From positions 1-13,572 of IMG/VR virus record IMGVR_UViG_2671180637_000017: a stretch of 13,572 bases of DNA. The stretch is one strand, 5' to 3'. The DNA comes from a virus (taxonomy: Duplodnaviria; Heunggongvirae; Uroviricota; Caudoviricetes). A program made the position numbers and the translations under genes. The notes beneath the pieces were generated by a model. The model searched no databases. It worked only from the letters and a program-made list of their open reading frames with translations, and was not told the DNA's origin. Below are positions 923 through 13,572 of the stretch, piece after piece. Position 1 is the first letter of the stretch. Each line of letters begins with the position of its first letter.

Positions 923-1371
923 GAATCCTCCCGGCCGGGATAATATTGTGAGTAAAATGAGGAGCGGGCTGAAGTCCGGAAGTTACAGGACAATGGCAGA
1001 AGAGAGACAACAGTCCGCAATACGAAAAAGGCCGCGCTATTGCGCAGAGTGATTACTGTCGGATATTATTCGCCAGCTGAAATATTACTTCACGTTTTGT
1101 TGTTTATTCCTTGCCGCCCGCGTCTCCCTGCGCGGGCTTTTTTTGTCCATAAGAAAGCCCCTCCGGAGAGGGGCTGGAGAGTGGCGCTATGTGCCATTGC
1201 ATGGTGCCGGGTGCCTCCCGGTGAATTCAGTACCAGCACCTGAATCCGCGATTATCCCATATACCTACTCGCTGATTGCCCCTCCGCACAGGTGGATTCA
1301 CCATGCCAGTTTCTTTTAACAAACTCCCCGCAAAACAGACAACTGTCAACCGTCTGAATTGTGAGACATTT

Positions 1372-1397: not shown

Positions 1398-1413
1398 GGG
1401 AAAATAAGTGTAG

Positions 1414-1487
1414 CGCGTTGTACTGGAGTCGAACCAGTGACCGATTGCTTAGAAGGCAATTGCTCTGTCCTGCTGAGCTAACAACGC
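1414..1487 (-). tRNA. tRNA-Arg (anticodon UCU)
   Basis: Cloverleaf folded by hand on the minus strand: acceptor GCGTTGT/ACAACGC, D-stem GCTC/GAGC, anticodon stem ATTGC/GCAAT with loop CTTCTAA, T-stem ACTGG/CCAGT with loop TTCGACT, discriminator G. The 3' CCA is not encoded (CTA follows). Confidence 0.8.
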
Positions 1488-1500
1488 AGAATACCGATAA

Positions 1501-1576
1501 TGGACCACCACCGGGGACTCGAACCTCGCACACTCAACTTAAAGGGTTGACGCTCTTTCCTGATGGCTAGTGGCGG
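1501..1576 (-). tRNA. tRNA-like sequence, possibly degenerate; anticodon UUU if the loop is in canonical register
   Basis: 76-nt tRNA-shaped sequence with encoded CCA: acceptor CCGCCAC/GTGGTGG (one G-U), T-loop TTCGAGT, anticodon stem TCAAC/GTTGA with loop CCTTTAA. It has C rather than U at position 33, a poorly paired D-stem and an A-C mismatch in the T-stem. Confidence 0.45.
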
Positions 1577-1577
1577 T

Positions 1578-1653
1578 TGGTGGCCCTTGCTGGATTTGAA
1601 CCAGCGACCTGGCGATTATGAGTCGCTCGCTCTCACCACTGAGCTAAAGGGCC
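1578..1653 (-). tRNA. tRNA with CAU anticodon, ileX/ileZ-like tRNA-Ile2 (lysidine type) or Met
   Basis: 76 nt with encoded CCA: acceptor GGCCCTT/AAGGGCC, D-stem GCTC/GAGC, anticodon loop CTCATAA, T-loop TTCAAAT. It is the Q-proximal tRNA, as ileZ is in Stx/lambdoid prophages. Confidence 0.8.
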
Positions 1654-2906: not shown

Positions 2907-3956
2907 TTACCCAAGCACGCCAGTTGCAAAGGCGTGATCAAGAAAACGAAAAATTAAATCAACCTGAGAACCATGCTTTTCTTCGAACGCCAGCGGATCC
3001 GCATGAAGCTCGTTGTGATGCTCCCGACACAGCGGTAGCGTGAAAATATCGTGAGATTTTGTCCCCATTCCGCCCTGACCATGACCAATCAGGTGATGGG
3101 GATCGTCGGCTGGCTTACCACAACACGCACACGGCTGTGTCTTCACCCAGCGTGTGTATTTCTCGTTAACCCAGCGGCGACGTTTAGGTCGTTTCATGAA
3201 AGATTCCGGAGACTCAGGATCAACGGCAATGCTGACCACCGTCTTTTCCTGTGGTGGGTTCTGTTGCTGGTGGGCGTGAGGCAGCGGCGCAAGATTTTTT
3301 GTGCGCTGTTTCAGTATGCTGGTGGCGGTCTGCTCTCCCGGTACGATGTCGCTTTCACGGTACATTGAGCGAATTTTTTCCGCACGCAACCCCAGCGAAC
3401 GACGTAATACCGCTTCCGGTAGCGCGTCCGCCACCTGATTGCGGACCGCCCACCAGGATAATTCAGCCAGCGATAATTCCCGTTCCTGCGAGCCATTCAT
3501 TGCATGGCGTATGACGTCAATCATCCATGCAGACAGGTTTTGGTGAGCAAGTTGCCCGAGTGATTCGGAGGTCTGGTCGCGCAGCTGGTTGTCGCAGTGC
3601 CAGCACAACACCATTGCGCCGGTACCATAACGGTGAATGACGGTTTCACTGTGGTGATAATCACCGTGTGGCCACTGGCAGGATTTAACATGGCGCAGTA
3701 ACCAGTCAGACAATGCGCCAGCGCCACCAGCAGCACGAATCACTCGTTCGTCGCTGAAAAATGGCAGTAATGATTTATCCTCCGCCAGCGGCTGGCGAAC
3801 GGCAGGAACGACCCCGGACGGCAGATTACGCATGCTTTTCGGTTCCGGCTCCACCAGTACCCGGGTATTGTGGAATACCGGCATGGATTCACGGCCCGGC
3901 TTAACGATCACCAGCCCGAGTTCCGGTACCAGAACAGGTCGAAGTAATACCCGCAC
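2907..3956 (-). CDS. DUF968-like lambdoid prophage protein (YdfU-like) with C-terminal HNH-like Cys/His motif
   Basis: 349-aa ORF; C-terminus CACCGKPADDPHHLIGHGQGGMGTKSHDIFTLPLCREHHNELH is Cys/His-rich like HNH/zinc-finger nucleases. Sits in the nin-like position upstream of rusA. Family call from memory. Confidence 0.55.
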   Translation of the reverse strand: MRVLLRPVLVPELGLVIVKPGRESMPVFHNTRVLVEPEPKSMRNLPSGVVPAVRQPLAEDKSLLPFFSDERVIRAAGGAGALSDWLLRHVKSCQWPHGDYHHSETVIHRYGTGAMVLCWHCDNQLRDQTSESLGQLAHQNLSAWMIDVIRHAMNGSQERELSLAELSWWAVRNQVADALPEAVLRRSLGLRAEKIRSMYRESDIVPGEQTATSILKQRTKNLAPLPHAHQQQNPPQEKTVVSIAVDPESPESFMKRPKRRRWVNEKYTRWVKTQPCACCGKPADDPHHLIGHGQGGMGTKSHDIFTLPLCREHHNELHADPLAFEEKHGSQVDLIFRFLDHAFATGVLG

Positions 3957-4694: not shown

Positions 4695-4850
4695 TTACTC
4701 CTCAGGTTCGTAAGCTGTGAAGACAGCGACCTCCGTCTGGCCGGTTCGGATTCGTACCTCGCAGAGGTCTTTCCTCGTTACCAGTGCCGTCACTATGACG
4801 GTTAAACAGATGACGATCAGGGCGATTAACATCGCCTTTTGCTGCTTCAT
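4695..4850 (-). CDS. hok: Hok-family type I toxin (51 aa), HokD/RelF-like
   Basis: MKQQKAMLIALIVICLTVIVTALVTRKDLCEVRIRTGQTEVAVFTAYEPEE: one transmembrane helix plus the conserved Hok C-terminus. Matches chromosomal HokD as I recall it; not verified by search. Confidence 0.85.
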   Translation of the reverse strand: MKQQKAMLIALIVICLTVIVTALVTRKDLCEVRIRTGQTEVAVFTAYEPEE

Positions 4851-4907
4851 AGCCTGCTTCTCCTTGCCTTTCGGCACGTAAGAGGCTAACCTAGATTTGC
4901 CGTTCAT
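4695..4907 (-). CDS. mok-like in-frame N-terminally extended reading frame over hok
   Basis: In-frame ATG at 4905-4907 with GAGG about 10 nt upstream, giving a 70-aa frame that shares the hok stop, as described for mok frames of chromosomal hok loci. Confidence 0.35.
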   Translation of the reverse strand: MNGKSRLASYVPKGKEKQAMKQQKAMLIALIVICLTVIVTALVTRKDLCEVRIRTGQTEVAVFTAYEPEE

Positions 4908-4958
4908 AGATTGAGCCTCAGATTAATGTTAAGCGTCTTGCAGGACGCGTAATGTTAA
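4899..4958 (+). ncRNA. Candidate sok-like antisense RNA
   Basis: Plus-strand TTGCCT (4864-4869), 17 bp, TAACCT (4887-4892) predicts a start near 4899. The transcript would be antisense to the mok start and SD and ends at hairpin GCGTC-TTGCAG-GACGC followed by GTAATGTT. Ends are predicted, not measured. Confidence 0.3.
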
Positions 4959-5446
4959 CTGGGGCTTTTCTCTATCTGCCGTTGGTGTTCATGCCTGAGA
5001 CAGATAGCCTCAAGCACCCGCAGCCATTCTACTTAACTCCCGTCACCTCGCCAATATGAAATCAGTCAGAAAGGCGATCCATAAGAACAACAGCAAGGCA
5101 ATAAATTGCCATTACAGCAGCAATAGCCAGCGCACATTTGAGAACCAGCACCACAACCTCCTGTATTGGACGTACACCAGTCCTGATAAATATGAGGCTG
5201 TCTCGTCAGTGATTCAATACAACTATTGGGTATAGTTTCTGTGATTTTGTTCTGTAGAAATGGAACACAACAACCAGTCACCACCAGCACTTCTTTAAAT
5301 ACGCCAAGTCCGACGCAAGCTAACCTTCTAGGCCGCTTTGAGCGAAGAGCGGACGCTCGCATCTGTCCCAACACACTGAGGGCTTCACGAACACCTAGGT
5401 GTACTCGTCAACTGGGAAAAAGTCAGATTATCTGCGTAAGTTTCAG

Positions 5447-5475
5447 CGTAAAAATTGGGCACTATAAAAGTGCCC
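5447..5475 (-). terminator. Rho-independent terminator closing the KAP NTPase island transcript
   Basis: Minus strand GGGCAC-TTTTATA-GTGCCC stem-loop followed by AATTTTTAC, 24 nt past the stop of the 713-aa ORF. Confidence 0.5.
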
Positions 5476-5498
5476 AAACTGTAGAAAAATACATAATG

Positions 5499-7640
5499 CT
5501 ATGTATCTGAGCCAAACATAGAGCGCCGCCTTGTTATTTTATAATAAGTGGGATTTTCATTATCCACCTCAAAATCAGAGAAGAAGTGGTTATCTCTTAA
5601 TGCTGTTAATAAACTTTGATTAGTTGAATCAACTTCAATTTTAGGTTTGCCTCGCCCCAAAATTTTACTGAACTCCGATAAACCAAGCAGATCAAGATAC
5701 TCTTTGCAAGTCGTCTTACTCAAATCCTTACCCGGCAACAAAGCGATTAGCAGTGCTATTTTATTCTGCATATTCAGTCCCTCTGCGACAAACAGGTTTT
5801 TTAGTAACGGTTCAGAAACATCATTAGGACTTGCTATCAATGCTGATATATCCTGTATTGCTCGACTCAAGATGAGCGACTGAGTAGAGGTTCCCCAAGT
5901 TTTATAAGATGACGTCAAGATTAGAAGTTCATCTGGTTTAAAATTATTTTCTAAAATATAGTCATTAACGACCTGAGAGTAATTCTTACTATAAATAGCC
6001 AACGGAGTTTTAACAAACTCGAGTAGCTTAACTTTCAAATCATCATCAACTTTCCAAGAAAGTATTGATATAGCCTCATCCAAAATAAAGTTATCAATCG
6101 TCATTAATTCAACGTATGCCCTGATATTCTTATGAATATAATAGGAAAGTTGCTCTGAATAGTTATCTCGTATGAAATTAAGTGGCGCAACATTCATACG
6201 AATAATATTTTTATCCACTAATATTTTGAACTTATCACTCGCGATATTACTAGCGCTAAAGGATGCTTTACAAATAATATTTAGTGAGCAAATTAATTTT
6301 TCATATTTATCATTTGATAAATCATTACAGATAACAATCGATTTAAATAATTTACCTTTAAGCTCGTTATCAATATTAATATTTTGAAAATTCAGGTCTA
6401 CATCAGTTCTATTGATAAATTCGATAAGTGAGTCATCCAGTCCATCAACATGTTCAAAATAAGAGACAATATTTTCCTCAGAGCACACTGCTCTATCTTT
6501 ATCCAACAAAGATGACCATAAAGATTCGCTCTCAACCTCACTCAGAGATGTCACGAAAGTTTGCAAAGCGTTTATATACTGGCCTTTTTGTTCATCAGAT
6601 ATTCCCTCATTATTAAGAACGGATAAAACAATGGATTCATCATCCACGATTGAACCATCACAACTAGATAAAACCATATCCAGATAGTCCCTAATATGGT
6701 TATTAACATAACTAGCCAAGGGAGAATCAGGTTGTGACATCACTAGTGTATAGTTCTTATGGCGAATATCATCTTCACTATTAAGCGTGTAAACCTTACT
6801 CAGCATTAAGGTCAGGTTGGAAAAATTAATATCATAAAGTGAATGCTGGTAAACCGCATCAAAGAGTACTTTATTTGCGTTTTCAAATTTAATACTGACA
6901 AAAGAGACGTTAAGCAACTTAAAACCACTAATTAATTTGTCAACCTTCGGTTCTGATATTGCTAAATAACCTGCCGAATCAGAGATGTAATCAGTCAGAC
7001 AATCATCAATATTAATGGCCTCGATGGCGTCATTGGCAGAATAATAAAACGTGCCTATAGAGTAGAGTTTAACCCAATCAGCAGAAAATTCACTCTCTGT
7101 CAGCGCATAAGAAAAAAACTCAGGCCACTGTGTATTTAATCGATTAATGAAGACAGGCTGAGCCCTCTCAGTTTCAAAGTAACCACGAATAAACTCAACT
7201 CTTCTATCTTTTCTTAGTTGTTTGAATAAACGTTTTATTAAGTTTACCTGGGCTGGCGTTTGAAGCAGATAAGCTAATAAATCAAAATTAAGCGCCTCTT
7301 CCTGTTCAAAATCCACTTCTCGAAGGCGGGCAACGACCAGCTTGGGGTTCTTGAGTTGATAAGTGAACTCTTTGCCTTTTTGATCGGTAATGCTGCGTAA
7401 AAACATCTTATCAATTCGACTCAGGCTATTTTCATAAAAATAGGTCATATAGTCGGTATAGGTTTCATCAATATAACCATCACGAATAAGGTATTTAAGC
7501 AAGTCAAAATACTCACTGCTTTTTATTTCATTAAAGTCTCTTTCCTCTCCAATTTCATTGGTATAGGTGAGTTTAAATATTTCATCAATGTTTTCTCTAG
7601 TTATTACTTCTTTAAGTCTTTTGTTTCTAGAATCAACCAA
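5499..7640 (-). CDS. Large alpha-helical protein, probably the C-terminal portion of the KAP NTPase gene
   Basis: 713-aa ORF in AT-rich DNA whose track start is a TTG. By hand translation the same frame stays open a further 75 codons upstream to 7865 (KKEIEAINDEILNSSQEVD...), where it meets the upstream ORF at an A6 run. Confidence 0.6.
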   Translation of the reverse strand: MVDSRNKRLKEVITRENIDEIFKLTYTNEIGEERDFNEIKSSEYFDLLKYLIRDGYIDETYTDYMTYFYENSLSRIDKMFLRSITDQKGKEFTYQLKNPKLVVARLREVDFEQEEALNFDLLAYLLQTPAQVNLIKRLFKQLRKDRRVEFIRGYFETERAQPVFINRLNTQWPEFFSYALTESEFSADWVKLYSIGTFYYSANDAIEAINIDDCLTDYISDSAGYLAISEPKVDKLISGFKLLNVSFVSIKFENANKVLFDAVYQHSLYDINFSNLTLMLSKVYTLNSEDDIRHKNYTLVMSQPDSPLASYVNNHIRDYLDMVLSSCDGSIVDDESIVLSVLNNEGISDEQKGQYINALQTFVTSLSEVESESLWSSLLDKDRAVCSEENIVSYFEHVDGLDDSLIEFINRTDVDLNFQNINIDNELKGKLFKSIVICNDLSNDKYEKLICSLNIICKASFSASNIASDKFKILVDKNIIRMNVAPLNFIRDNYSEQLSYYIHKNIRAYVELMTIDNFILDEAISILSWKVDDDLKVKLLEFVKTPLAIYSKNYSQVVNDYILENNFKPDELLILTSSYKTWGTSTQSLILSRAIQDISALIASPNDVSEPLLKNLFVAEGLNMQNKIALLIALLPGKDLSKTTCKEYLDLLGLSEFSKILGRGKPKIEVDSTNQSLLTALRDNHFFSDFEVDNENPTYYKITRRRSMFGSDT

Positions 7641-7735
7641 ACTTTCTCTTGATCTTGATATAAGCTCATTAATTTCTTCTATTTTACCATTAAATTTATT
7701 TTCAACACTTTCTTTTCTAGCCGCCCTTCTCTTTG

Positions 7736-9130
7736 CTATATCAGCTTTCTCAGCCTGATTATAGTGAGGATGATTATTATATCTAGATAATTCCTTATCG
7801 TATATAGCATCAACCTCCTGACTAGAGTTGAGTATTTCATCATTGATTGCCTCAATCTCTTTTTTCTATCTCTAATATCTTTTTCTATTTTCTTTATTTC
7901 TTCAATAATAAGGTTGTCTTTTTCACTAAATATGGTATAAACCATACCTTGATTAAGTTGCAACTCACTAAAATCTCTTGGGAAAATATTCTTATAGGCA
8001 ATAATGGCCAACATTTTATTACAGTCAAGTTCTGTCGTGTTTAATTTGTTATAATAAATTTGAAATTCGTTATAAATATTCTTCAATATTCTCATATCAT
8101 CAATATATAAAGACATCCCTTGTAGAAATCTTTCATTGAACAACTTGAGAATACCACCACCATCAAAATGTGTGATAAACTGATCGTAAGAGTTAGAACT
8201 ATCAACAACAGGAATAACTGGAATGATATAATCAAAGAATTTGGTTCTATCCTTCGAAATGAAGATATCATCACGAAGCAAGTAAATAAAACGTAACGTC
8301 GATTTCTTGTGCCCTGCTGTGTCCCGTTGAATATTAACCAGTCTGTTAACCTCATGAAGACGTTCAAAGATGTTATTACTATTAAAACGGTCCATGTCTT
8401 CAAAAACAATGGCATCAGCATCAACGTTCTCGAAAAGGTACAATACTTCATTTAAATATCTATCGAAATAAGACTCGTTACTTTCTTCAAAAATCTCTAT
8501 TTCATTACCCTGTAAATTTATTTTCTTAAGAACATTACGATTCTTTTGGATTTTTATTAACTTGTAAATGAAAATACAAGATAGGATAGTACATATAAAC
8601 CCACTAATTAAAAGCGTATCGTATTTAGTTGATAATGTAAGTAGTGTCTTTATATTACCTTCAGATAAAAGTGAAACAAACTTTTCCCACTTATTAAATA
8701 GCGTGATATGTAGTATCATGGCGATAAATAACACCGTAAAGATGGTGTTTATCACAATGTTGTTAGTTTTTATTTTTTTCTTTACTTTAAAATGTGTCTG
8801 GGGAATATCATCAGCATTAATTTGGTGAATTAACTGGTTAAGAACTTTACCTTCTAACGCGGTTTCATTTATATCTTTACTTGGTTCATTAGTTTCAGCT
8901 TCCTCAATCGATCTGAAATGAGCAAGTGAGATATGAACAAACTTTATATTTGAATGACTTTTCTTATAGGATTCGATAAGACTACTTTTTCCTGCGCTAT
9001 ATTGCCCTGATATCGCAACATTTTTTAGATCGTTATTGGCAAAAACAAAATCTATCGCATTTTTATATACACCCAGCTCAACATCGCTGAACGGAGTTAA
9101 CTTTTGAAATTTATAGCTATCATCACTCAT
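7736..9130 (-). CDS. KAP-family P-loop NTPase (N-terminal NTPase module with membrane insert)
   Basis: Walker A GQYSAGKSS (plus 8984-9007), two hydrophobic helices (IVINTIFTVLFIAMILHITLF and TLLISGFICTILSCIFIYKLI), then Walker B-like AIVFEDMDRF. A transmembrane insert between Walker A and B is the hallmark of KAP NTPases. SD GGGAAGGGA lies 5 nt before the ATG. The last ~45 codons look like out-of-frame read-through. Confidence 0.8.
   Translation of the reverse strand: MSDDSYKFQKLTPFSDVELGVYKNAIDFVFANNDLKNVAISGQYSAGKSSLIESYKKSHSNIKFVHISLAHFRSIEEAETNEPSKDINETALEGKVLNQLIHQINADDIPQTHFKVKKKIKTNNIVINTIFTVLFIAMILHITLFNKWEKFVSLLSEGNIKTLLTLSTKYDTLLISGFICTILSCIFIYKLIKIQKNRNVLKKINLQGNEIEIFEESNESYFDRYLNEVLYLFENVDADAIVFEDMDRFNSNNIFERLHEVNRLVNIQRDTAGHKKSTLRFIYLLRDDIFISKDRTKFFDYIIPVIPVVDSSNSYDQFITHFDGGGILKLFNERFLQGMSLYIDDMRILKNIYNEFQIYYNKLNTTELDCNKMLAIIAYKNIFPRDFSELQLNQGMVYTIFSEKDNLIIEEIKKIEKDIRDRKKRLRQSMMKYSTLVRRLMLYTIRNYLDIIIILTIIRLRKLI
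7859..7865 (-). other. Candidate -1 frameshift site A_AAA_AAG (or 1-nt indel in an A6 run) joining the two KAP ORFs
   Basis: The upstream frame reads AGA AAA AAG (R K K). A -1 slip or one extra A yields KKEIEAIN... continuous with the 713-aa ORF. The heptamer is the same as the dnaX slippery site. Confidence 0.4.
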
Positions 9131-13141: not shown

Positions 13142-13572
13142 TAGCTAATCAACAAAGCTAAGGTTAGTAATTAAGGAGTTCTCCACGGGTGAGGTGGAGT
13201 GCGTGCGCCGGACACGGGTGAGCATCCGGCATTGACAGTTTACTGAAAGGATATTTCCCTGAAAAGTCAGACCATAACGCGAAAGCGCACGGCGAGGTAG
13301 CTGGTTCATAGATAGCCTGTCGTTAAATTTTCGTCGACCGTGCGCTTCCGGTTGTGGCAATCCGCGAAATGGCGCGGCGGTAAGTATGGCGGGGTTATTC
13401 CTTCCCCCGTTGAGGACACCGGGTTGTCAGGTTGACCATACGCTTAAGTGACAACCCCGCTGCAACGCCCTCTGTTATCAATTTTCTGGTGACGTTTGGC
13501 GGTATCAGTTTTACTCCGTGACTGCTCTGCCGCCCTTTTTAAAGTGAATTTTGTGATGCGGTGAATGCGGCT

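What the first reader, a model, noticed from the sequence alone, without database searches (positions are those of the whole stretch)
7640..7870. The two large island ORFs join at an A_AAA_AAG heptamer: possible programmed -1 frameshift or a homopolymer indel
The 464-aa KAP ORF passes through AGA AAA AAG and then reads about 45 low-quality codons to a stop at 7736. The frame of the 713-aa ORF is open, by hand translation, from 7865 and is -1 relative to the upstream frame. A -1 slip on A_AAA_AAG, or one extra A in the A6 run, gives a continuous ...IRDRKKEIEAINDEILNSSQEVDAIYDKELSRYNNHPHYNQAEKADIAKRRAARKESVENKFNGKIEEINELISRSRESLVDSRNKRL... protein of roughly 1,180 aa. A_AAA_AAG is the slippery sequence of E. 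coli dnaX. A short hairpin (GATTG-AGG-CAATC) starts 1 nt downstream, though I see no strong upstream SD-like stimulator. A genuine frameshift would yield a short membrane NTPase and a long fusion in a fixed ratio. Alternatively the A6 tract is a phase-variable switch, a pseudogenising mutation or a sequencing error.
Basis: partly seen in the sequence, partly recalled or inferred. Interest (0 to 1): 0.75.

Follow-up and report, generated by a model that had tools for sequence, protein, structure and literature searches.

The report
One-base deletion splits prophage defence gene
The two large ORFs are the halves of one 1,210-residue Tmn/YobI-type anti-phage NTPase gene carried by a lambdoid prophage. 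The gene was split in this E. coli lineage by loss of one A from an A7 run, so this is an ordinary frameshift allele and not a programmed frameshift.

Summary
On the minus strand, a 464-aa ORF (9130..7736) reads AGA AAA AAG at 7865..7859. The -1 frame opens exactly there and runs to 5499.

The interpretation as a programmed -1 frameshift fails.
- Joining the frames gives a 1,210-aa YobI-family (Tmn-like) transmembrane P-loop NTPase. This product is identical to a natural intact protein.
- Hundreds of E. coli and Shigella copies are one uninterrupted ORF with A7 (AGA AAA AAA GAG): 31 of 31 complete E. coli genomes and 11 of 11 viral or metagenome contigs.
- All 80 species-level homologues read straight through the junction, and their Lys-Lys pair is not conserved.
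- No upstream Shine-Dalgarno-like (SD-like) element or downstream structure is present.

Deleting one A from A7-G leaves A_AAA_AAG in phase, so the heptamer is the footprint of the deletion.

The allele is real. Independent assemblies with 0-2 SNPs carry it, and an intact A7 copy with the same two private substitutions also exists.

The most likely result is a broken defence gene: NTPase and membrane hub without the sensor arms. It may leak a little wild-type protein through unprogrammed slippage, about 0.1-10% by inference from literature.

Shortened tracts (A6, A5) also turn up on other allele backgrounds. That suggests a mutational hot spot, but sequencing-platform artefacts are not excluded.

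This is ordinary and of low interest.

The parts
7736..9130 (-). Upstream ORF of 464 aa. Residues 1-424 are the native N-terminal part of the YobI/Tmn protein (P-loop NTPase with two inserted TM helices). Residues 425-464 are an out-of-frame tail ending at TAG 7738..7736.
   Evidence: ORF list and translation. Pfam PF20693 YobI-ATPase covers residues 22-398, E 6.4e-123. PADLOC Tmn HMM E 1.1e-66 over residues 9-439.
8984..9007 (-). Walker A motif GQYSAGKS (residues 42-49).
   Evidence: Motif search and back-translation check.
8546..8767 (-). Two hydrophobic transmembrane segments (residues 122-148 and 170-195) lying between Walker A and the Walker-B-like AIVFED (240-245). This is the KAP/Tmn-type membrane insertion. 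The lineage-specific T194I substitution sits at the end of TM2.
   Evidence: Kyte-Doolittle scan, 19-residue windows, peaks 2.29 and 2.16. Coordinates checked. T194I.
7859..7865 (-). A6 tract plus G, giving A_AAA_AAG in phase (AGA AAA AAG). This is the site of the one-A deletion relative to the A7 of intact alleles (AGA AAA AAA GAG).
   Evidence: Direct reading. A7 in L001-L003. 31 of 31 complete E. coli genomes carry one extra base and no mismatch over 121 nt. 11 of 11 viral and metagenome contigs are A7. Codon view of intact relatives.
7866..7868 (-). TAG stop in the -1 frame, immediately 5' of the tract. The downstream frame therefore opens exactly at the tract.
   Evidence: Frame analysis. 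Sequence check.
5499..7865 (-). Open -1 frame encoding residues 425-1210 of the intact protein (predicted coiled-coil proximal arm plus all-alpha distal arm). The listed 713-aa ORF (7640..5499) is only its part downstream of the first start-like codon, TTG. No ATG, GTG or TTG occurs in this frame between 7865 and 7641.
   Evidence: The -1 product is identical to the natural 1,210-aa protein P0269. AlphaFold2 model of the 787 residues is all-alpha, mean pLDDT 61.7, with residues 1-80 at 73-88.
7845..7857 (-). Small hairpin GATTG-AGG-CAATC, 1 nt 3' of the heptamer. It is too weak and too close to act as a frameshift stimulator.
   Evidence: Free energy -2.6 kcal/mol. The 79 nt downstream fold no better than shuffles, z = 0.22.
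5455..5477 (-). Terminator-like GC-rich hairpin with a T tract, about 20 nt after the gene's stop codon. This fits a self-contained single-gene cassette.
   Evidence: Consensus scan. Such matches are about as frequent as in shuffles, so this is suggestive only.

Best explanation
The two ORFs are one gene. It encodes a 1,210-aa YobI-family (Tmn-like) transmembrane P-loop NTPase. It is a single-gene, low-GC cargo cassette in a lambdoid prophage, sitting between the replication genes and hok/sok and the Q region.

In this E. coli lineage one A was lost from an A7 run (AGA AAA AAA GAG became AGA AAA AAG AG), most likely by replication slippage. This is a real, inherited frameshift allele, not a decoding device. 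The slippery heptamer is the automatic by-product of the deletion.

Standard translation yields a 464-aa product: the NTPase/membrane hub (1-424) plus 40 junk residues. It lacks the cytosolic arms that in characterised Tmn bind the phage trigger and are needed for defence. The inferred consequence is loss, or strong reduction, of defence.

One further inference concerns leakiness.
- A_AAA_AAG is the most shift-prone -1 motif in E. coli.
- It sits exactly where the frames must be rejoined.
- A small fraction of ribosomes, perhaps 0.1-10%, would therefore make a protein identical to the wild type.
- This would be unprogrammed leakiness.

Shown: the deletion, the single-ORF state of homologues, the family assignment, and the absence of stimulators. 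Inferred: loss of function, the level of leak, and the mutational mechanism.
For: 1. Identity of the gene.
- The fused product hits Pfam YobI-ATPase, E 6e-123, and the PADLOC Tmn model, E 1e-66.
- It has Walker A, a Walker-B-like motif and two TM segments between them.

2. Homologues are one ORF.
- Over 90 hits of 1,210 aa at about 100% identity in E. coli and Shigella. Hits at 92-97% in Klebsiella, Serratia, Yersinia and Pectobacterium.
- The consensus allele P0137 is seen on 427 contigs.
- 80 of 80 species-representative loci are continuous across the junction, and the KK pair is not conserved outside Enterobacterales.

3. Tract length.
- A7 in three fetched genomes.
- One extra base and no mismatch in 31 of 31 complete E. 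coli genomes.
- A7 in 11 of 11 viral and metagenome contigs.
- A relative at 88% identity has AGA AAA AAG GAG in frame, so the third codon position is free to vary.

4. The allele is real.
- The same 464-aa and 713-aa pair occurs in an ENA metagenome assembly (2 SNPs in 8.8 kb), in Logan ERR178191 (identical) and in ERR6109018 (1 SNP).
- The exact repaired protein, carrying this lineage's private I194 and A956, exists as a natural 1,210-aa protein, P0269. The deletion is therefore recent, on a background that is still sampled intact.

5. Hot-spot logic. The repaired gene's longest homopolymers are three 7-mers, and the lesion is in one of them.

6. No stimulators.

7. Function of the missing part. 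In Tmn-25, proximal-arm mutations abolish defence, and an NTPase-only fragment does not bind the RIIB trigger (PMC13001434).

8. Leak estimate.
- Unstimulated motifs gave 2-10 times a 0.055% background in a reporter (PMC4066793).
- One-bp-deletion mutants of lambda cI were suppressed at about 10%, with the peak at an A_AAA_AAG (PMC10861913).
Against: - No expression data exist, so neither loss of function nor the size of the leak is shown.
- I could not inspect raw reads, so within-sample A6/A7 heterogeneity is untested.
- Shortened tracts on other allele backgrounds (P0123, P0283, P0284) could mean the tract switches more often than a simple one-off mutation implies.
- The protein matches the PADLOC Tmn profile only over the N-terminal 440 residues. 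It has not been tested for defence, so the functional consequence rests on analogy with Tmn-25.
Confidence: 0.8

Rival explanations
1. Programmed -1 ribosomal frameshifting. The gene is built as two overlapping ORFs. A_AAA_AAG directs a fixed share of ribosomes into the -1 frame, giving a short membrane NTPase and a long fusion protein, as in dnaX or IS elements.
For: The heptamer is in the correct phase and at the only place where the -1 frame opens. A_AAA_AAG is among the best E. coli -1 motifs (PMC4066793; PMC5009743). The -1 product is a bona fide full-length protein.
Against: The split is confined to a few near-identical contigs. Hundreds of intact A7 alleles and 80 of 80 distant homologues are single ORFs. 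The KK codons are not conserved. There is no upstream SD (anti-SD -2.9 kcal/mol) and no downstream structure (hairpin -2.6 kcal/mol; z = 0.22). An intact progenitor of the same lineage exists.
Confidence: 0.03
2. Sequencing or assembly artefact. The isolate really has A7, and the contig under-calls the homopolymer.
For: Homopolymers are the classic site of base-calling errors. The difference is a single base. The other A6 and A5 observations (P0123 on a 5.19-Mb contig; single Logan contigs P0283 and P0284) could come from error-prone platforms.
Against: The window's exact allele was recovered independently by NCBI, Logan and ENA assemblies. These came from different runs, with 0, 1 and 2 SNPs of difference over 4.3-8.8 kb. 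The same pipelines return A7 for hundreds of other samples. A 7-base run is well within short-read accuracy (established knowledge).
Confidence: 0.06
3. Contingency (phase-variable) switch. The A tract expands and contracts at high frequency, turning a costly prophage defence gene OFF (A6, A5) and ON (A7) within populations.
For: Both A6 and A7 exist on the same I194/A956 background. A6-type products also exist on the consensus background (P0123, 5 contigs) and on the K293Q background (P0283). An A5-type product also exists (P0284). The defence gene is also often inactivated by other routes: IS insertions and other frameshifts in 4 of 32 complete genomes, plus P0273.
Against: A7 is short compared with classical phase-variable tracts (established knowledge). 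All 31 complete genomes and all 11 viral or metagenome contigs are A7. No A8 or A9 product was found on the backgrounds tested. The tract is not conserved: an AAG interruption occurs in a close relative and KK is absent in distant ones. Two other 7-mers in the gene are equally long. Platform artefacts may explain the non-window cases.
Confidence: 0.1

Closest known systems
[quoted passage not shown] 2020; mechanism in PMC13001434)
   Same: - N-terminal YobI-like P-loop NTPase with Walker A and B, and two TM helices inserted in the NTPase domain.
- Long alpha-helical C-terminal region of about 790 residues.
- Single-gene cassette on a mobile element (prophage).
- Strong hit to the PADLOC Tmn profile over residues 9-439.
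   Different: - Length is 1,210 aa, against a median of about 1,270 for the enterobacterial clades Ia and Ib.
- The C-terminal arms do not match the PADLOC profile.
- No defence phenotype, trigger or oligomeric state is known for this protein.
- In this window the gene is interrupted at residue 424, at the NTPase/proximal-arm boundary.
E. coli dnaX and IS3/IS911-type programmed -1 frameshift sites (A_AAA_AAG)
   Same: Identical heptamer in the correct phase. The same single tRNA-Lys(UUU) decoding applies, so some -1 slippage is expected.
   Different: - No upstream SD and no downstream stem-loop or pseudoknot.
- Not conserved among homologues.
- It arose by a recent deletion.
- The zero-frame product ends in 40 junk codons rather than forming a defined functional isoform.
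Unprogrammed suppression of 1-bp-deletion frameshift mutants ('leaky' frameshift alleles, e.g. lambda cI FS mutants in PMC10861913; 'savior indel' concept in PMC5009743)
   Same: A single-base deletion followed by a window in which a -1 slip restores the frame. An A_AAA_AAG motif was the main slip site in the published cI case.
   Different: Nothing has been measured here. In this case the slip site coincides with the lesion itself, so the rescued protein would be exactly wild type.
Homopolymer frameshift pseudogenes and contingency loci in bacterial genomes
   Same: A one-base length change in a mononucleotide run inactivates an accessory, potentially costly gene. The change recurs on several allele backgrounds.
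   Different: The tract is only 7 nt, is not conserved, and is overwhelmingly in the ON length. Expansions were not observed.

Membership tests
YobI-like P-loop NTPase (Pfam PF20693) | Significant full-length match to the family profile above the gathering score | tested here: met
   411 bits against a cutoff of 27, E 6.4e-123, profile positions 1-363 of 363, residues 22-398.
Tmn defence system / KAP-type NTPase | Walker A and B P-loop core with two transmembrane helices inserted inside the NTPase domain | tested here: met
   GQYSAGKS at 42-49. Hydrophobic segments at 122-148 and 170-195. AIVFED at 240-245. PADLOC Tmn HMM E 1.1e-66 over residues 9-439. The strict Pfam KAP_NTPase model did not hit at E <= 0.01.
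Tmn defence system / KAP-type NTPase | Long cytosolic C-terminal arms: coiled-coil proximal arm plus alpha-solenoid distal arm | tested here: inconclusive
Tmn defence system / KAP-type NTPase | Protects cells from phage infection as a single-gene system | not testable with these tools
   Only context is available: a stand-alone low-GC cassette in lambdoid prophages and IMG/VR viral contigs.
Programmed -1 ribosomal frameshift site | Slippery X_XXY_YYZ heptamer in phase at the ORF overlap | tested here: met
   A_AAA_AAG at 7865..7859 in phase. The -1 frame opens at the heptamer.
Programmed -1 ribosomal frameshift site | Two-ORF arrangement and heptamer conserved among homologues | tested here: not met
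   Intact single ORFs in 31 of 31 complete E. coli genomes, 11 of 11 viral or metagenome contigs and 80 of 80 species loci. KK is not conserved.
Programmed -1 ribosomal frameshift site | Stimulatory elements: upstream SD-like sequence and/or downstream stem-loop or pseudoknot at 5-9 nt | tested here: not met
   Best anti-SD duplex -2.9 kcal/mol. Hairpin -2.6 kcal/mol at 1-nt spacing. Downstream 79 nt z = 0.22 against shuffles.
Programmed -1 ribosomal frameshift site | Trans-frame protein product made at a defined ratio | not testable with these tools
   Needs a reporter assay, western blot or mass spectrometry.
Phase-variable (contingency) homopolymer locus | Tract length varies among close relatives, in both directions and at appreciable frequency | tested here: inconclusive
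   A6 and A7 occur on the same I194/A956 background. A6 also occurs on the consensus and K293Q backgrounds, and A5 once. A8 and A9 were not found. A7 is present in all 42 DNA loci inspected outside the window lineage. The sequencing platform of the rare variants is unknown.
Phase-variable (contingency) homopolymer locus | Repeat tract conserved, or longer than composition would give | tested here: not met
   The gene is 33% GC and has three 7-nt runs. The tract is interrupted by AAG in a relative at 88% identity and is absent in distant homologues.

The most novel reading that the evidence does not exclude
The A6 allele is not dead. It is a dosage-tuned 'pseudo-pseudogene'. Unstimulated -1 slippage on the A_AAA_AAG created by the deletion supplies a few percent of exactly wild-type Tmn-like protein, alongside an excess of arm-less NTPase/membrane hub. 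Recurrent A7 to A6 or A5 contraction then acts as a crude reversible dimmer for a costly abortive-infection gene carried by a prophage.
Probability: 0.08. Interest if true: 0.5.

Novelty: already known. Interest (0 to 1): 0.15.

Why it matters
The main value is as a correction. The locus should be annotated as one frameshifted YobI/Tmn-family gene, not as two genes or a recoding site. An in-phase A_AAA_AAG at an ORF junction should be read first as the signature of an A-run deletion.

It adds a small data point to the picture that prophage-borne defence genes are often inactivated. In this gene the routes include IS insertions and several independent frameshifts.

If the leak were shown to matter, the locus would be a natural example of unprogrammed frameshift suppression restoring an exactly wild-type protein. 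It would also offer a handle on how much Tmn-type protein a cell needs for defence. Nothing here shows that.

Tried and rejected
- **Programmed frameshift.** Rejected on comparative grounds and for lack of stimulators.
- **Independent translation of the 713-aa ORF.** Judged unlikely. Its TTG is simply the first start-like codon in a frame that is open 75 codons further upstream. No ATG, GTG or TTG lies between 7865 and 7641, and the zero-frame stop is 96 nt upstream. The one promoter-like match in the overlap is within chance, 10 found against 19 expected.
- **Transcriptional slippage as the rescue route.** Judged minor. Efficient bacterial RNA polymerase slippage is documented for runs of 9 A or T (PMC5009743). 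This tract has 6.
- **713-aa proteins from other genomes (P0141, P0142) as evidence of the same lesion.** Rejected. Strain ST2350 has A7 at this tract yet still yields a 713-aa CDS because of other indels.
- **Searching the protein database with the 464-aa product to count frameshifted alleles.** Uninformative. Only cluster representatives were listed.
- **The third protein search, for diverse C-terminal homologues.** It returned only sequences at 90% identity or more, so the structure model stayed at low confidence.


Full report
**What is in the sequence**

The window is the whole 13,572-nt contig CYEI01000041.1 of E. coli assembly GCA_001285545.2. Both large ORFs lie on the minus strand.

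- The 464-aa ORF runs 9130..7736. The listed 713-aa ORF runs 7640..5499.
- On the coding strand the upstream ORF reads ...GAT ATT AGA GAT AGA AAA AAG AGA TTG AGG....
- The heptamer A_AAA_AAG occupies 7865..7859, in the X_XXY_YYZ phase.
- The -1 frame carries a TAG at 7868..7866, immediately before the tract. It is then open for 787 codons down to 5499.
- The zero frame continues for 40 codons to TAG at 7738..7736.
- The '713-aa ORF' is only the part of the -1 frame after its first start-like codon, a TTG. The 75 codons before it contain no ATG, GTG or TTG.

Small corrections: 40 codons rather than about 45, 1,210 aa rather than about 1,180, and minus strand.

**What the gene is**

- The joined protein matches Pfam PF20693 (YobI-like P-loop NTPase) end to end, at residues 22-398, E 6e-123.
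- It matches the PADLOC Tmn model at E 1e-66 over residues 9-439.
- It has a Walker A (GQYSAGKS, 42-49), a Walker-B-like AIVFED (240-245), and two strongly hydrophobic segments between them, at 122-148 and 170-195. This is the membrane insertion that defines KAP/Tmn-type NTPases.
- The remaining ~790 residues have no Pfam, PHROG, NCBIfam or PDB sequence match.
- An AlphaFold2 model of them is all-alpha but of low confidence, mean pLDDT 61.7. That is compatible with the coiled-coil and solenoid arms described for Tmn but does not prove them.
- A 2026 preprint characterises Tmn as a YobI-family decameric membrane NTPase. Its cytosolic arms bind the phage trigger (T2 RIIB). Proximal-arm mutations abolish defence, and an NTPase-only fragment does not bind the trigger (PMC13001434).
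- The break in this window, after residue 424, falls at the boundary between the NTPase core and the proximal arm.

**Context**

The gene is 33% GC, against flanks of about 50%. It sits in a lambdoid prophage. The gene order is:

- a CI-like repressor, a cro-like gene, YdaT, a replisome organiser and DUF977;
- then this gene;
- then hok/sok, DUF968, RusA, the Q antiterminator, tRNAs and a DUF1737/SASA esterase.

The same cassette sits in differently mosaic prophages of other strains and in IMG/VR viral contigs. Only 32 of 5,426 complete E. coli genomes carry it. Its nearest non-enterobacterial relatives are from Bacillota, at 40-55% identity.

**Is the split programmed?**

No. Four lines of evidence agree.

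- A protein search returned over 90 proteins of exactly 1,210 aa at about 100% identity from E. coli and Shigella. It also returned proteins at 92-97% from Klebsiella, Serratia, Yersinia, Pectobacterium and others. The consensus allele alone is recorded on 427 contigs.
- At the DNA level, the three genomes I fetched have A7. All 31 complete E. coli genomes that match the 121-nt junction differ from the window by exactly one extra base and nothing else. All 11 viral and metagenome contigs that match a pattern allowing A6-A8 have A7.
- In 80 species-representative loci the reading frame runs straight through the junction. The few interrupted genes are broken elsewhere. The Lys-Lys pair is not conserved outside Enterobacterales. 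A relative at 88% identity has AGA AAA AAG GAG in frame, so the third position of the second Lys codon simply drifts.
- There are no stimulators. The 79 nt downstream fold no better than shuffles (z = 0.22). The best upstream anti-SD pairing is -2.9 kcal/mol, against -6.3 for a dnaX-like element computed the same way.

The key point is that deleting one A from AGA AAA AAA GAG must yield AGA AAA AAG AG. The slippery heptamer, its phase and its position at the frame junction are the footprint of the deletion. They are not independent evidence for recoding.

**Real mutation or artefact?**

The evidence favours a real mutation.

- The exact 464-aa and 713-aa pair is found in four assemblies from three sources. 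These are this contig, Logan ERR178191 (identical over 4.7 kb), Logan ERR6109018 (1 SNP, at 7744) and an ENA metagenome assembly (2 SNPs over 8.8 kb). I cannot tell whether ERR178191 is the same isolate as the window. The other two differ in sequence.
- The window allele carries two private substitutions relative to almost every intact allele, T194I and T956A, plus one synonymous change.
- The exact 'repaired' protein with I194 and A956 exists as a natural 1,210-aa protein on a 4,691-nt Logan contig. That is one base longer than the 4,690-nt A6 contig. The intact progenitor of this lineage is therefore still sampled, and the deletion is recent.

**Hot spot or switch?**

- The repaired gene's longest homopolymers are three 7-mers, and the lesion lies in one of them.
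- Exact look-ups found the A6-type product on two further backgrounds: the consensus (P0123, 5 contigs) and K293Q (P0283, 1 contig). An A5-type product was found once (P0284).
- A8 and A9 products, and A6 on six other backgrounds, were not found.
- This points to recurrent contraction of the tract. However, the non-window cases come from a 5.19-Mb contig and from single Logan contigs of unknown platform, so homopolymer under-calling cannot be excluded.
- Other strains inactivate the same gene in other ways: ISEc8 and IS5/IS903 insertions, a G4 to G3 deletion, +2 indels in T5 and A5 runs, and a frameshift near residue 245.
- I read this as an accessory defence gene under weak or fluctuating selection that decays by whatever route is most mutable. 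A dedicated contingency locus is possible but weakly supported.

**Consequence (inferred)**

- Standard decoding gives the NTPase/membrane hub plus a 40-residue junk tail and no arms. By analogy with Tmn-25 this should not sense a trigger.
- The C-terminal part has no credible independent start.
- E. coli decodes both Lys codons with one tRNA, and A_AAA_AAG is among its shiftiest -1 motifs (PMC5009743).
- Without stimulators, motifs of this class gave 2-10 times a 0.055% background in a lacZ reporter (PMC4066793).
- In contrast, 1-bp-deletion mutants of lambda cI were suppressed at about 10%, with the main slip at an A_AAA_AAG (PMC10861913).
- A leak between about 0.1% and 10% of exactly wild-type protein is therefore plausible but unmeasured.
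- RNA polymerase slippage is a minor candidate, because efficient slippage is documented for runs of 9.

**Verdict**

The finding is real as an observation and ordinary as biology. It is a one-base homopolymer deletion in a known kind of prophage defence gene. The programmed-frameshift reading is not supported.

Noticed in passing
window 1413-1653 (-): A cluster of three tRNA genes lies downstream of the Q antiterminator. ARAGORN calls them Arg(TCT), Lys(TTT) and Met(CAT). Rfam at gathering score reports only the outer two. A prophage-borne tRNA-Lys(UUU) would decode the very codons at the slip site. Whether it is functional, or affects frameshifting, is unknown.
   Followed up: partly
window 4695-5019 (-): A hok/sok type I toxin-antitoxin module lies immediately downstream of the YobI/Tmn gene. 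The sok RNA is at 4845-5019 (Rfam, 107 bits) and the Hok/Gef ORF at 4695-4850.
   Followed up: no
window 13484-13535 (+) and 1145-1335 (-): DicF antisense sRNA (76.7 bits) lies at the contig end, and STnc100 sRNA (130 bits) lies near the Q/tRNA region. Both are typical cargo of Qin/Rac-like lambdoid prophages.
   Followed up: no
window 5499-9130 (-); residues 194 and 956: The window lineage has two private amino-acid changes, T194I (end of TM2) and T956A, relative to nearly all intact alleles. It also has one synonymous change. An intact A7 copy with both changes exists (P0269), so they predate the deletion.
   Followed up: yes
L001 (NZ_CP151038.1), L003 (NZ_CP031321.1), L100 (Logan SRR12159410); hits H7 and H11: The same gene is inactivated by other lesions in other strains. 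These are G4 to G3 at gene nt 3236, +2 indels in a T5 and an A5 run, a frameshift near residue 245, an ISEc8 insertion, and IS5/IS903 insertions. In all, 4 of 32 complete genomes carry a disrupted copy.
   Followed up: partly
intact alleles, e.g. L002 gene nt 1266-1272: In the wild-type A7 allele the tract is itself an in-phase A_AAA_AAA. A -1 slip there would terminate two codons later (…RKKRD*), giving an arm-less product of about 426 aa. An 88%-identical Enterobacter homologue (L010) even has A_AAA_AAG in phase within an intact ORF. No evidence that this is used.
   Followed up: no
window 5499-9130 versus flanks; loci L011-L087: The gene is 33% GC inside a prophage of about 50% GC. Beyond Enterobacterales, its closest full-length homologues (40-55% identity) are almost all from Bacillota (Clostridia, Bacilli). 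This suggests fairly recent horizontal acquisition.
   Followed up: partly
L001 9594-10663 (NZ_CP151038.1): In strain 19KM2326N the neighbouring phage replisome-organiser gene is annotated as frameshifted, and IS3 elements flank the region. The prophage as a whole looks degraded in some hosts.
   Followed up: no
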